Shown one piece after another: positions 36,001 through 38,930 of a DNA stretch of 38,930 bases. The position numbers were made by a program. The stretch is from a virus (Duplodnaviria > Heunggongvirae > Uroviricota > Caudoviricetes). The stretch lies in IMG/VR virus record IMGVR_UViG_2545824708_000026. One strand, given 5' to 3'. Position 1 is the stretch's first letter; the number at the start of each line of letters is the position of its first letter.

Positions 36001-38930
36001 CCGTTACAAAGCGAGACTGGGTATTTCCCGGCCTTTCTGTTATCAGAAATCCCCTGAAAGCACAGCGGCTGGCTGAGGAGATAAATAATAAACGGGGGGC
36101 TGTATGCACAAAGCATCTCCTGTTGAGTTAAGAACGTGTATCGAGATGGCACATAGCCTCGCTCAAATTGGAGTCAGGTTTGTGCCAATACCAGTAGAAA
36201 CAGACGAAGAATTTCATACGTTAGCCGCATCCCTTTCACAAAAGCTGGAAATGATGGTGGCGAAAGCAGAAGCAGATGAGAGAGACCAGGTATGACAACC
36301 ACTGAATGCATTTTTCTGGCAGCGGGCTTCATATTCTGTGTGCTTATGCTTGCCGACATGGGGCTTGTTCAATGACACCTCAGCAAGAAAACGCCCTTCG
36401 CAGTATTGCCCGTCAGGCTAATTATGAAATCAAAAAAGCCAGACAGCAGTTTCCGGATAAAAACGTCGATGACATTTGCCGTAGCGTACTGAAAAAGCAC
36501 CGCGAAACGGTAACGCTGATGGGATTCACACCGACTCATTTAAGCCTGGCGATCGGCATGTTAAACGGCGTCTTTAAGGAACGGTGAACATGAAAAACAA
36601 AATCATCATGGAGCTACAGGCTCCTTTTTTATTGTTCGCATTCACCCTCAAGCGTATTAACCAACAATTCAGGGATTAATGGAAGATGGCAGACATCATT
36701 GATTCAGCATCAGAAATTGAAGAATTACAGCGCAACACAGCAATAAAAATGCGCCGCCTGAACCACCAGGCTATATCTGCCACTCATTGTTGTGAGTGTG
36801 GCGATCCCATAGATGAGCGAAGACGCCTGGCCGTTCAGGGTTGTCGGACTTGTGCAAGTTGCCAGCAAGATCTGGAGCTTATCCGCAAACAAAGGGGGAT
36901 TAAGTGATGGCTAACCTGCAACTTGCTGTTAAAAGTGAATACTTCGATGCCATGATTCGCGGAGAGAAAACGGAAGAGTATCGCCTTGTTAATGACTACT
37001 GGAAAAAGCGCCTCGTTAACCGCGAGTATGGCAGTCTGATCATCACGAAGGGGTATCCGAAGCGCGACGATTCCAGCCGCAGAATTGATGTTCCGTATGG
37101 CGGATATGAAATCAAGACAATCACACATCCGCACTTCGGCGATAAACCGGTAAAGGTATACGCGATAAAGGTGAATATCGGCAATGAATAACAATCCTCG
37201 CATTGGCGGGGATTTCTTTTATCTGAAAAGGACAGAATACATGATTAACAATATTGCAAATCAGTCTTCGTTTCCGGCTGCAACAATTGACAGCCAGATG
37301 CTGTTGAAAATGGTTAATGAGGCGCGGAGACTGTGAGGCGAAAAAGAAGTACGCAACAACGACTTCATTGCACGCATCAAAGATGAGCTTGAGGGGGAGG
37401 GTTACGAAATTTTCGTAACCCCCATGGATAAGAAAAAAGGCGGAGCGGATCAGGTGGTTATAGTGATGACCTACAAGCAAGCCCTGCGCGTCGCCGCACG
37501 TGAGTCGAAAGCCGTCCGTCGTTCGCTGGTCGACAAACTTGAATCAATGCAACAGCAGTTGCAACAAAAAACGACCACGAAGAAATCACCGGATGGCCTT
37601 GAAGAATTCCGTAAGGCACGCGCATTGAAAATGACCGTCGACACAATGAAAGACCTCTTCGACTTCCTCCCTCACCTCGCACCGGAAGCTAAACAGGTCG
37701 TTGCCGCCAGCCTGATTAATCCCGTCGTCGGCTTTAGTGCAATCCCTCTTCCGGTCATTGATGAACATCACTACTCTGCGTCGGAGGTTGGCACCATGCT
37801 TGGCATTTCAGCCAACAAGGTAGGGCGCATTGCCAACACCTACATGCTCAAAACAGAAAAGTACGGGAAGTGGTTCATCGACAAATCGGCGCACAGTGAC
37901 AAGCAGGTCGAGACATTTCGCTACAACGAGGCGGGAGTGCACAAGATCGAGGAACTCATCGAAGGAGAACGAAAGGCTGCATGATTTTGACAAGATAGTT
38001 TTCCCCAAATCTGGGGGAAAAGACCGAATGGCGCGGCTTACAGCAAGATAAAGACCACATGATTTGACAAATCCGCATTAACGGGGCTATATTCCGCTTC
38101 ATGGTGCTGAACACACCTTGCAAAGCGGAAACCGCACCCGTCAGTAATGCGGCTTTTTTATGTCCATTTCTCAGATATGGTCGGGTAGCGCGTATACCGA
38201 AAAACAACCGAAAGGTTAAGGATACGGGCCGACTTTGCACGGTGTTCAAGTACCTGACCGCCCTGCTGAACACAGGGCTATCTGAACAAATGCAAAGGAC
38301 ATAAAAATGACCAGTCAACTCATCCCCGTATTCAACGGCACTATCGCCAACGAAACAGCCCTACTCTGCAATGCCCGCGATCTGCATGCTTTTTTAGGCG
38401 TGAAAAAGGTGTTTGCGGCATGGATTACAAATCGCATTTCAGAATACGAATTCATTGAAAATCAAGACTATATTTTGCTTTCCAATTTGGGAAAGCAAAC
38501 ATCTGGTAGAGGCGGTCACAACCGCAAGGATTACCACCTCACCCTCGACACAGCCAAAGAGCTGGCAATGGTCGAGCGCAACGAAAAAGGCCGCCAGATA
38601 CGCCGATACTTCATCGAGTGCGAAAAGAAACTTCGCAGCATGCAACCAGCGCAGCAATTCACAGACGAGGAAATCATCCTCCTCTGCTACATGCAGGTAC
38701 AGATGGAGAAAGCACAGGACATCAGCAAACGCCTGTATCCGATATTGAAGGAACTGAACTCATCATACTCGAGCAAGCTGTATGACATCGCGTTTGAGAC
38801 TTTCTACACGGTGACGAAAAACAGAGACGCACTGCTCAGGGAGGCGACACGACTTGACCAGACAAGCGCCCTTTTCGAACGGGCAAGACCAATGCTGAAA
38901 AGCCTTCGGGCGAGACAATTCGAATTTTAA

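What the first reader, a model, noticed from the sequence alone, without database searches (positions are those of the whole stretch)
37241..37984. Single in-frame opal (TGA) codon splits a 31-codon N-terminal ORF from a 186-aa ORF; 23-bp near-perfect palindrome at the junction
An ATG at 37241 with an AAAGGA Shine-Dalgarno opens a frame that runs 31 codons to TGA (37334-37336) and then continues in the same frame, without further stops, through the ATG at 37424 to 37984. Just before that ATG lies GGGTTACGAAATTTTCGTAACCC (about 37398-37420), a near-perfect inverted repeat. Either a longer ancestral gene was knocked out by a nonsense mutation, or a small upstream ORF and a structured element regulate the downstream gene.
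Basis: seen in the sequence. Interest (0 to 1): 0.45.

Follow-up and report, generated by a model that had tools for sequence, protein, structure and literature searches.

The report
Nonsense-mutated antirepressor-like gene with conserved hairpin
The in-frame TGA is a recent nonsense mutation that turned a conserved ~247-residue prophage "antirepressor-like" gene into an already-annotated pseudogene. The palindrome beside it has nothing to do with the stop: it is a stem-loop kept inside the coding sequence of this whole gene family by paired base changes, which is the unexpected part.

Summary
ATG 37241, in-frame TGA 37334-37336 and the open frame to 37984 are all there. The palindrome is at 37399-37421, one base off the stated position.

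The window is the early-left arm of an E. coli lambdoid prophage. Intact 241-252-aa homologues (phrog_1726 "anti-repressor") span the stop throughout the Enterobacterales. RefSeq already annotates identical DNA as a pseudogene with an "internal stop".

Codon 32 is Cys in most homologues (TGC where I read the DNA). It is CGA (Arg) in a sister allele that differs from the window by that one base in 744. TGA is the one-step intermediate between TGC and CGA, and CGC was never found. I found no SECIS-like element, no suppressor tRNA and no conservation of the stop. The "upstream ORF plus regulatory element" reading is not supported.

The palindrome lies inside the ancestral coding sequence (G-Y-E-I-F-V-T). 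It is retained in 35 distinct homologous sequences with extensive compensatory changes and synonymous-codon bias. A stem-loop sits at an approximately equivalent position in the neighbouring AntA gene. A weaker one was found in the same stretch of all 10 distant phage AntA genes sampled.

Its function is unknown. The candidates are an mRNA/DNA hairpin under selection, or a palindrome kept perfect by replication template switching.

The parts
37241..37984 (+). Disrupted antirepressor-like gene (247 codons including one internal opal codon); a pseudogene of the phrog_1726 family
   Evidence: sequence and translation. RefSeq CDS flagged as pseudogene, 'internal stop', at the same coordinates; intact 242-247-aa 'antirepressor' CDSs in phages Lyz12581Vzw, Stx2a_F451 and WGPS6; phrog_1726, E=1.7e-96, residues 2-246.
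37334..37336 (+). In-frame opal codon (codon 32). The homologues have TGC (Cys) or CGA (Arg) here.
   Evidence: DNA alignment; Cys in most of 23 homologues; the only base that separates the TGA and CGA alleles over 744 nt.
37241..37333 (+).
   Evidence: aligns residue for residue with the N-termini of the intact homologues.
37424..37984 (+). Residual 186-aa ORF starting at Met62. It lacks the first strand, both helices and the next strand of the N-domain but keeps the long helices and the C-terminal winged-helix-like domain.
   Evidence: ORF; AF2 secondary structure; local fold matches to MerR/RacA/BldC/Xis-type domains; weak E-values, TM about 0.7 normalised to the target.
37399..37421 (.). 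23-bp palindrome/stem-loop (11-bp arms and one central base) encoding G-Y-E-I-F-V-T. It is conserved across the family through compensatory changes.
   Evidence: arms. (the predicted RNA fold of 37325-37440 forms this stem-loop). (homologues). (90.1% of cells paired against 31-49% in slid controls; 7 of 11 pairs with double changes; 0/500 shuffles). (synonymous-recoding test).
37193..37224 (+). Terminator-like hairpin plus T-rich tail between the ASCH gene and the start codon at 37241
   Evidence: a consensus scan only.
38307..38930 (+). Neighbouring intact Ant gene (AntA + P22_AR_C domains), used here as the comparison family
   Evidence: PF08346 1.6e-26, PF10548 1.9e-8; phrog_377.
38474..38499 (.). 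Analogous stem-loop inside the Ant gene (10-bp perfect arms, 6-nt loop; codons 56-65, I-L-L-S-N-L-G-K-Q)
   Evidence: I8. (30 unique variants, 20 with perfect arms of 9 bp or more, and the same hairpin read in two reading frames). (distant AntA genes).

Best explanation
The locus is a lambdoid-prophage gene for a ~247-aa antirepressor-like protein of the phrog_1726 family. The protein has an AntA/Rha-like N-terminal domain, long helices, and a C-terminal winged-helix-like domain. A single base change made codon 32 an opal stop, so ribosomes starting at 37241 release a 31-residue peptide.

Shown: the gene is split, intact relatives span the split, and the allele is real and recurs in many genomes.

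Inferred: the allele is a null or strong hypomorph. Any full-length protein would come only from ordinary low-level UGA read-through. Any 186-aa product would come from inefficient initiation at Met62.

Inferred from parsimony: the order of events was TGC (Cys) to TGA (stop) to CGA (Arg). On this reading the intact allele carried by inducible Stx2a phages is a revertant of the nonsense allele.

The 23-bp palindrome is independent of the stop. It is a dyad-symmetric element embedded in the codons for the strand at residues 56-60 of the N-domain. It is kept across the family by paired substitutions that even force the flanking amino acids to change as reverse-complement codon pairs.

My preferred mechanism for it is a stem-loop selected at the nucleic-acid level, most simply in the mRNA, where it would modulate translation, transcription elongation or decay of a gene whose product must stay scarce in lysogens. 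This is inferred and not shown. I put it at about 40%.
For: Gene and stop:
- Searches give the anatomy.
- window TGA, against CGA in Lyz12581Vzw and TGC in Stx2a_F451 and WGPS6.
- the listed best hits are mostly 241-252 aa, from E. coli, Salmonella, Serratia, Klebsiella, Morganella and others. They align through the stop, and most have Cys at that position.
- phrog_1726 covers the full length.
- PGAP annotates 'internal stop'.

Allele survey of codon 32:
-, complete E. coli genomes: TGA in 15, CGA in 19, TGC with the same flanks in 0, CGC in 0.
-, IMG/VR: TGA 3, CGA 5, TGC 1.
-, metagenomes: TGA 1, CGA 3.
- the TGA and CGA alleles differ only at 37334.
- the TGA allele is absent from 50,697 GenBank phage records.

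No recoding apparatus:
- no Rfam match with E of 5 or less in 37100-38400.
- only a weak hairpin after the UGA.
- the window's tRNAs are Arg-CCT, Thr-TGT and Asn-GTT.

Independent decay of the same gene:
- a G8-to-G9 frameshift in a sister lineage leaves 189-aa 'MDKKK...' ORFs.

Palindrome:
- 40 unique homologous 43-mers, nearly all with 9-11-bp arms but different sequences.
- covariation statistics.
- native sequences are far more stable than synonymous recodings, with z about -4 in most variants.
- the palindrome window ranks 2nd of 935 coding windows.
- an equivalent hairpin in the AntA family, including distant phages.
Against: - The direction TGA to CGA rests only on parsimony and on not finding CGC. 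CGA to TGA is a single common transition and could have happened more than once, and both alleles occur behind both upstream modules.
- No expression data were available, so 'null or hypomorph' is untested.
- Stem mismatches show no bias towards G.U over A.C on the coding strand. By my reading there are about 7 G.T and 5 A.C variants. That does not favour an mRNA structure over a DNA-level explanation.
- No function is demonstrated for the hairpin.
- Template-switch mutation can create and maintain hairpins without selection (PMC8794818).
- In Gram-positive phage AntA genes the hairpin is short (5-7 bp), and individual z-scores are only -0.5 to -1.4.
Confidence: 0.8

Rival explanations
1. A small upstream ORF and a structured leader regulate an independent 186-aa gene that starts at 37424.
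For: An SD-like GGAGG (about 37394-37398) lies immediately 5' of the stem and the ATG lies 2 nt 3' of it, so folding would bring them close together. Gene callers predict 'MDKKK...' proteins of 189 aa in a sister lineage.
Against: The 31 codons and the 60 codons before 37424 align with intact homologues. Met62 is present only in the TPMDKKK variant of the segment after the palindrome. The palindrome is in-frame coding sequence in every intact homologue. There is no T-run on either strand, so it is not an attenuator or terminator. The 189-aa ORFs come from a frameshifted G-run, meaning they are remnants too.
Confidence: 0.05
2. The UGA is decoded, as selenocysteine or by programmed read-through, and the gene is intact.
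For: Most homologues have Cys at this codon, which is the classic Cys/Sec pattern. E. coli has the Sec machinery (general knowledge).
Against: No SECIS-like stem-loop was found at the required distance: the only hairpin 10-30 nt downstream has a CAACAA loop, and there is no Rfam hit. The downstream sequence is identical in the CGA allele, so nothing has adapted to recoding. The position tolerates Arg, Tyr and Ser, so it is not a catalytic Cys. The stop occurs in one shallow lineage only. The window carries no suppressor tRNA.
Confidence: 0.03
3. The truncation is adaptive. Loss of the N-domain, with or without a Met62-initiated C-terminal product, is selected in lysogens, for example to stabilise lysogeny.
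For: The TGA allele is found in 15 complete genomes from varied hosts, behind at least two different upstream modules and in one diverged recombinant background. A second, independent N-terminal knock-out (the G-run frameshift) leaves the same ORF. The allele is absent from sequenced phage records.
Against: Prophage genes decay neutrally, and other members of the family are truncated at other places, for example P0035, P0037 and P0043. There is no evidence that the 186-aa ORF is translated. The TGA copies are too similar to each other to measure selection.
Confidence: 0.15
4. The palindrome has no function. It is a quasi-palindrome kept perfect by intramolecular template switching during replication, which copies a change in one arm into the other.
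For: This mechanism is documented to create and maintain hairpins and to mimic compensatory substitution (PMC8794818, found). There is no G.U over A.C bias in the mismatches. The hydrophobic-then-polar peptide pattern already gives partly complementary T-rich and A-rich arms, because the recoded controls are not unstructured.
Against: A stem-loop occurs at the equivalent place in two families whose proteins are barely alignable and whose stem sequences are unrelated. It also occurs in phages of distant hosts. In AntA the same stem is preserved while the reading frame across it changes. A mismatched variant (GTA to GCA) persists in several genera, which is unexpected if correction were fast.
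Confidence: 0.3
5. The palindrome is a DNA site bound by a dimeric protein, possibly the gene's own winged-helix product, and the two half-sites co-evolve.
For: Perfect dyad symmetry with an AT-rich centre resembles an operator. Both domains of the protein look like DNA-binding folds. Symmetric changes are expected for a homodimer site. The lack of strand bias in the mismatches fits DNA.
Against: There are no further copies of either half-site in the 39-kb window beyond chance. In AntA the loop length (0-6 nt) and the centre of symmetry shift between variants, which a fixed dimer geometry would not tolerate. The stem sequence is unconstrained apart from pairing.
Confidence: 0.15

Closest known systems
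Prophage pseudogene with an internal stop (RefSeq/PGAP annotation of the identical locus, e.g. DTO54_RS09045 in NZ_CP030939)
   Same: Same DNA, same coordinates, same call: CDS 37241-37984 flagged as a pseudogene with an 'internal stop'.
   Different: The annotation does not say which codon was ancestral, does not note that a one-base sister allele is intact in Stx2a phages, and does not mention the palindrome.
phrog_1726 'anti-repressor' / AntA-type (PF08346) phage antirepressors
   Same: The full-length homologue matches phrog_1726 end to end. Its residues 12-120 and the neighbouring AntA protein both map to the same part of phrog_63. The gene neighbourhood is ant-xis-int.
   Different: No Pfam family reaches threshold. 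The profile comparison with the AntA gene is not significant. The C-terminal domain looks like a MerR/Xis-type winged helix. Antirepressor activity is only an annotation label and has not been tested.
Bacterial selenoprotein genes (UGA plus SECIS)
   Same: An in-frame UGA at a position where homologues have Cys.
   Different: No SECIS-like structure was found, the UGA is not conserved, and the residue is not invariant.
Cis-acting RNA structures embedded in or overlapping coding sequence, e.g. the lambda cIII thermoregulator (RF01804, present in this window at 33824-33882)
   Same: A nucleic-acid structure constrained together with a protein code, in the same early-left operon.
   Different: The cIII element lies at the translation start and has a known mechanism. 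This stem is about 160 nt inside the ORF, is not in Rfam, and has no known mechanism.
Quasi-palindrome template-switch mutagenesis (PMC8794818)
   Same: It predicts concerted change of the two arms and long-lived perfect stems.
   Different: It is a mutational process, not a functional element. By itself it does not explain recurrence at one structural position in divergent gene families.
Hairpin-bridged Shine-Dalgarno/start arrangements (phage T4 gene 38; recalled from memory, not checked here)
   Same: An SD-like GGAGG, a 23-nt stem-loop, then an ATG 2 nt later.
   Different: The ATG is not conserved in the family, and the arrangement exists only in the TPMDKKK variant of the segment after the palindrome. 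It is a lead, not a test.

Membership tests
Nonsense-mutated pseudogene of a conserved gene | Full-length homologues align on both sides of the stop | tested here: met
   phrog_1726 covers residues 2-246.
Nonsense-mutated pseudogene of a conserved gene | The stop replaces a sense codon one mutation away in close relatives | tested here: met
   TGA against CGA (a single difference in 744 nt) and TGC.
Nonsense-mutated pseudogene of a conserved gene | The stop is real, not a read error | tested here: met
   15 complete genomes, 3 IMG/VR contigs and 1 metagenome contig.
Nonsense-mutated pseudogene of a conserved gene | Loss of protein product | not testable with these tools
   Needs proteomics or reporter fusions.
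Selenoprotein gene | Cys in homologues at the UGA position | tested here: met
   (Cys in most homologues; also Arg, Tyr and Ser).
Selenoprotein gene | SECIS stem-loop shortly 3' of the UGA | tested here: not met
   only a weak hairpin with a CAACAA loop; no Rfam hit with E of 5 or less.
Selenoprotein gene | UGA conserved across a clade | tested here: not met
   Confined to one shallow allele group.
Programmed stop-codon read-through / suppressor-tRNA recoding | A suppressor tRNA or a conserved stop with a stimulatory context | tested here: not met
   tRNAs are Arg-CCT, Thr-TGT and Asn-GTT. The stop is not conserved.
Leader peptide (uORF) with attenuator | The short ORF is an independent conserved unit upstream of the gene start | tested here: not met
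   It is the N-terminus of the ancestral protein.
Leader peptide (uORF) with attenuator | The hairpin acts as an intrinsic terminator (G+C-rich stem followed by a U-tract) | tested here: not met
   No T-run after the stem on either strand. It was not listed by the terminator scan.
Conserved structured nucleic-acid element inside a CDS | Base pairs kept through compensatory changes in homologues | tested here: met
   7 of 11 pairs with double changes, 90.1% of cells paired against 31-49% in slid controls, 0/500 shuffles.
Conserved structured nucleic-acid element inside a CDS | Structure stronger than the amino-acid sequence alone dictates | tested here: met
   0-4 of 500 recodings are as stable as the native sequence for most variants; rank 2 of 935 windows.
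Conserved structured nucleic-acid element inside a CDS | Strand-specific signature of RNA (G.U tolerated, A.C not) | tested here: inconclusive
   G.T and A.C mismatches are about equally frequent.
Conserved structured nucleic-acid element inside a CDS | A demonstrated function | not testable with these tools
   Needs mutagenesis of the stem with compensatory rescue.
AntA/AntB antirepressor (PF08346) | Pfam model match above the gathering score | tested here: not met
   no Pfam family for the intact homologue or the 186-aa ORF. The link is only indirect, through phrog_63.

The most novel reading that the evidence does not exclude
The palindrome is one instance of an undescribed, functionally selected stem-loop. 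It sits at one fixed structural position, in the codons at and just after the strand that follows the second helix of the AntA/Rha-like domain. It occurs in antirepressor-type genes of temperate phages from Enterobacterales through Bordetella, Acinetobacter and Vibrio, and more weakly in Firmicutes phages. It would act in cis on expression of a gene that must be kept nearly silent in lysogens.
Probability: 0.35. Interest if true: 0.65.

Novelty: new member of a known kind. Interest (0 to 1): 0.45.

Why it matters
The stop codon matters little. It is one more decaying prophage gene and is already flagged in RefSeq. It does give a tidy example in which the nonsense allele appears to be the evolutionary intermediate between a Cys allele and an Arg allele, the Arg allele being the one carried by inducible Stx2a phages.

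The palindrome matters more. If it is selected, it would add a cis-acting structure hidden inside the coding sequence of a very widespread class of phage lysis-lysogeny regulators. If it is not selected, it would be a clear natural case of replication template switching keeping a coding-region hairpin perfect and dragging amino-acid changes along with it. Either outcome can be tested with a handful of synonymous and compensatory mutants.

Tried and rejected
- Selenocysteine or other recoding: rejected. There is no SECIS-like fold, no Rfam hit, no suppressor tRNA, and the stop is not conserved.
- Intrinsic terminator or attenuator: rejected. There is no T-run.
- Multi-copy operator: half-site searches in the window gave only chance-level matches.
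- Known sRNA or Rfam family for the palindrome: none.
- Direct profile comparison of the N-domain with the neighbouring AntA protein: not significant (probability 1.6%). The domain relationship therefore rests on the shared phrog_63 region and on similar predicted secondary structure.
- Fold search of the whole AF2 model against the PDB: no global match, only local winged-helix hits with weak E-values.
- Second homologous-protein search (AntA): it returned only near-identical proteins and added nothing.
- Literature searches for a described hairpin in antirepressor genes: nothing relevant.
- The AgvB/AsxR lead for the intergenic promoter-terminator unit: not supported. Those Rfam families (named in the preprint read) did not hit the window.
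- G.U versus A.C asymmetry, tried as a way to tell RNA from DNA: uninformative.
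Full report
**Observation.** The coordinates are correct apart from a one-base shift of the palindrome. ATG 37241 follows AAAAGGA. Codons 1-31 run to TGA at 37334-37336, and the same frame continues without a stop through ATG 37424 to the stop at 37982-37984. The frame is also open upstream to an ATG at 37184 that overlaps the end of the preceding ASCH-domain gene. A terminator-like hairpin at 37193-37214 and all annotated homologues point to 37241 as the start. The palindrome GGGTTACGAAATTTTCGTAACCC occupies 37399-37421, with perfect 11-nt arms and one central base.

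**Context.** The window is the early-left arm of an E. coli lambdoid prophage. The gene order is exo, DUF1317, DUF1382, a TraR/DksA-like gene, an ASCH gene, this locus, and the Ant gene that ends the window. In the identical chromosomal copy, excisionase and integrase follow. Identical DNA occurs in at least 13 complete E. coli chromosomes from humans, poultry, a giant panda, a rabbit farm and seawater.

**What the split ORF is.** RefSeq/PGAP annotates exactly this interval as a pseudogene, "hypothetical protein; internal stop". Phage Lyz12581Vzw (99.6% identical) and the Stx2-converting phages Stx2a_F451 and Stx2a_WGPS6 carry an uninterrupted 242-247-aa CDS annotated "antirepressor".
- A protein search with the intact form found 1,902 relatives. 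The best-scoring hits listed are mostly 241-252 aa, from Escherichia, Salmonella, Serratia, Enterobacter, Klebsiella, Cronobacter, Pantoea and Morganella.
- In an alignment of 23 of them with the conceptual read-through, similarity runs from residue 1, across the stop, to the C-terminus.
- No Pfam model matches. phrog_1726 "anti-repressor" covers residues 2-246 (E=1.7e-96). Residues 12-120 hit the same part of phrog_63 as the neighbouring AntA protein does.
- An AlphaFold model (mean pLDDT 76) gives an N-terminal strand-helix-helix-strand-strand-helix domain (residues 15-86), two long helices (90-163), and a C-terminal helix-helix-strand-strand-helix domain (178-246). The PDB fold search gave only local matches to MerR/RacA/BldC/Xis-type winged helices, with weak E-values. 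By its fold I assign these matches to the C-terminal domain; the search output does not report which query residues aligned.
- The stop therefore falls at the end of the first helix of the N-domain. The 186-aa ORF from Met62 lacks the first strand, both helices and the next strand of that domain.

**Which mutation.** The window reads CTG TGA GGC. Lyz12581Vzw reads CTG CGA GGC (Arg). F451 and WGPS6 read CTG TGC GG(C/T) (Cys). Most homologues have Cys, with single cases of Arg, Tyr and Ser. I used 45-mers centred on the codon, so that megablast reports only the exact allele.
- Complete E. coli genomes: TGA in 15 of 5,426, CGA in 19, TGC with identical flanks in 0, CGC in 0.
- An NNN pattern scan: TGA 3, CGA 5 and TGC 1 in IMG/VR; TGA 1 and CGA 3 in metagenomes.
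- No other codon appeared.
- Over the 744-nt gene, the TGA and CGA alleles differ by that one base, plus singletons in two contigs.

Cys is the state in most diverged homologues, and TGC in the two closest outgroup sequences. TGA is one step from both TGC and CGA. The other possible intermediate, CGC, was never seen. The shortest history is therefore TGC to TGA to CGA. That would make the Arg allele, the one in sequenced inducible Stx2a phages, a revertant of the nonsense allele. This is a parsimony inference at about 60%. CGA to TGA is an easy transition and could be recurrent, and both alleles occur behind both kinds of upstream module.

The TGA allele is absent from 50,697 GenBank phage records. 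It has nevertheless had time to recombine into a different upstream context (strain TUM3755) and into a background with 13 further, mostly third-position, differences (Z1322HEC0006).

A sister lineage lost the same N-terminus independently. An A-to-G change created a run of eight G just 5' of the palindrome. Copies with nine G are frameshifted, which explains the 189-aa "MDKKK..." proteins in the database.

**Is the stop decoded?** I found nothing to suggest it.
- There is no Rfam match of any kind with E of 5 or less in 37100-38400.
- The RNA fold after the UGA shows only a weak 5+2-bp hairpin with a CAACAA loop.
- The downstream sequence is identical in the CGA allele.
- The three tRNA genes in the window are Arg-CCT, Thr-TGT and Asn-GTT.
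- Ordinary leaky UGA read-through would give a trace of full-length protein. Because the position tolerates Cys, Arg, Tyr and Ser, that trace could be active, but this is inference.

**The palindrome is not a junction element.** In intact genes it is coding sequence: G|GGT TAC GAA ATT TTC GTA ACC|C, which encodes G-Y-E-I-F-V-T. This is the strand at residues 56-60 of the N-domain. I extracted the same codons from homologues found in one-genome-per-species bacterial contigs and in IMG/VR.
- This gave 40 unique 43-mers. Nearly all keep 9-11-bp arms in the same register, but with different sequences. Examples are GTACTACGAAATTTTCGTAGTGC, GACCTACAAAATTTTTGTAGGTC, GTTTTACGAAACTTTCGTAAAAC, GCACTACAAAATTTTTGTAGTGC, GACCTACACAAAAAGTGTAGGTC and GTTTTACACTAAAAGTGTAAAAC.
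- The flanking residues change as reverse-complement codon pairs: Gly/Thr GGT-ACC, Thr/Gly ACC-GGT, Phe/Lys TTT-AAA, His/Val CAC-GTG. The inner residues do the same: Glu/Phe GAA-TTC and Lys/Phe AAA-TTT.
- On a gap-free alignment of 35 distinct sequences, 90.1% of pair cells are Watson-Crick or G.U, against 31-49% when the partner is slid by 1-3 columns. Seven of 11 pairs show changes on both sides, two of them with four Watson-Crick pair types each. No shuffle in 500 reaches the observed covariation score.
- Recoding each peptide with synonymous codons gives much weaker folds, with z about -4 and 0-4 of 500 recodings as stable as the native sequence for most variants.
- Across 935 thirteen-codon windows in twelve genes of this operon, the mean z is -0.1 (sd 1.1), and the palindrome window ranks second.
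- The dyad symmetry is therefore maintained at the nucleotide level, at the expense of the protein sequence.

**The same feature in the next gene and beyond.** The neighbouring Ant gene (AntA + P22_AR_C) contains a perfect 10-bp-arm, 6-nt-loop inverted repeat at 38474-38499, codons 56-65. It covers the end of the equivalent strand and the start of the loop before the Gly-rich turn, and it ranks fourth in the same control.
- Among 30 unique E. coli-phage variants, 20 keep perfect arms of 9 bp or more. Their stems differ: CTTTCC/GGAAAG, CTTCCC/GGGAAG, ATTTCCC/GGGAAAT, CTTGCC/GGCAAG, CTCCCC/GGGGAG, CTCACC/GGTGAG and TTCGCC/GGCGAA. Loops range from 0 to 6 nt.
- In one group the same stem is read in a different reading frame, giving ILLSNLGKQ in one and MIASQIREAK in the other.
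- Ten distant AntA genes were sampled: Bordetella, Klebsiella, Acinetobacter, Edwardsiella, Vibrio, Shigella, Clostridium, Listeria, Streptococcus and Staphylococcus phages. All fold into a hairpin in that stretch. The stem reaches 12 bp in the Bordetella phage but only 5-7 bp in the AT-rich Gram-positive phages. All ten are more stable than their synonymous recodings, with z from -0.5 to -4.1.
- Neither hairpin matches any Rfam family at gathering threshold in a scan of the whole window.

**What the hairpin might do.**
- It is not an intrinsic terminator, because there is no T-run on either strand.
- It is not part of a multi-copy operator set in this window.
- In general it is not coupled to an internal start codon, since Met62 occurs in only one variant of the segment after the palindrome.
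- Three readings remain.
  1. A stem-loop selected in the mRNA, or in single-stranded DNA, that modulates expression of a gene whose product must stay scarce in lysogens. Supporting points are recurrence at one structural position in two barely alignable families with unrelated stem sequences, preservation across a reading-frame change, a variable loop, and presence in distant phages.
  2. A quasi-palindrome kept perfect by replication template switching, a documented way to create and maintain hairpins and to mimic compensatory change (PMC8794818). Supporting points are the absence of a G.U over A.C bias among mismatches and the partly complementary arms that the hydrophobic-then-polar peptide pattern already provides.
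  3. A dimer-binding DNA site. The shifting centre and spacing in AntA argue against this.
- I rank them about 40%, 30% and 15%, and none is shown.
- In the TGA allele specifically, an untranslated stem placed between GGAGG and ATG 37424 could in principle bridge the two and allow some initiation of the 186-aa product. This is speculation and is confined to this one variant.

**Verdict.** The locus is a nonsense-mutated, already-annotated pseudogene of a conserved phage antirepressor-like gene. It is not a uORF-regulated gene and not a recoding site. The part worth following up is the palindrome: a family-wide, covarying, codon-overriding stem-loop that, as far as Rfam 15 and my literature searches show, has not been described.

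Noticed in passing
window 38474-38499 (inside the Ant gene, 38307-38930): A perfect 10-bp-arm inverted repeat with a 6-nt loop lies inside the AntA-domain coding sequence, at approximately the structural position of the palindrome in the finding. It is conserved with compensatory changes in E. coli-phage relatives. A weaker hairpin was found in the same stretch of 10 of 10 distant AntA genes.
   Followed up: yes
window 38179-38267 (+): An Rfam sRNA-Xcc1 (RF02221) match at 69.3 bits (gathering score 53) lies immediately upstream of the Ant start codon. I did not examine its role here.
   Followed up: no
window 38064-38160 (+): A near-consensus sigma-70 promoter (TTGACA, 18-nt spacer, TATATT; 11 of 12 matches) is followed about 35 nt later by a CCGCA/TGCGG hairpin and a T-run. 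This could be a ~60-nt small RNA between the pseudogene and Ant. It has no Rfam match, including AgvB and AsxR.
   Followed up: partly
L075, L085 and related IMG/VR loci (the equivalent of window ~37390-37401): In a sister lineage, the GAT GGG GAG GGT just 5' of the palindrome has become a run of eight G. Copies with nine G are frameshifted, which is a second, independent way of losing the N-terminus and explains the 189-aa 'MDKKK...' database proteins. It may be a slippage hot spot.
   Followed up: partly
L001 2624-3790 (phage Lyz12581Vzw) and L003 2697-3853 (Stx2a_F451): In the phages that carry the intact CGA or TGC allele, the first Ant gene is cut to its first ~90 codons and is followed by a second, ~73%-identical complete Ant gene. 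In the window, where the upstream gene has the stop, there is a single intact Ant.
   Followed up: no
window 37193-37224 (+): A terminator-like hairpin (9 pairs) with a T-rich tail sits between the ASCH gene stop and the start at 37241. It is part of the module that travels with the gene into other upstream contexts.
   Followed up: no
window 31909-31980 (+): Two adjacent strong hairpins lie here. The one at 31917-31947 is at the very end of the ORF 31177-31953 and was the top outlier in the synonymous-recoding control. The one at 31955-31980 is AAAACCCGGC/GCCGGGTTTT and looks like a terminator.
   Followed up: no
window 33824-33882 (+); 1009-1083 (+); 22626-22781 (-): The lambda cIII thermoregulator (RF01804, 88.5 bits) is present, together with three tRNA genes (Arg-CCT, Thr-TGT, Asn-GTT). 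None of the tRNAs is a suppressor.
   Followed up: partly
window 34598-34642 (+), in the ORF 34490-35275: This coding window is another one that is much more structured than its synonymous recodings (z = -3.7, MFE -15.8 kcal/mol). I did not examine it in homologues.
   Followed up: no
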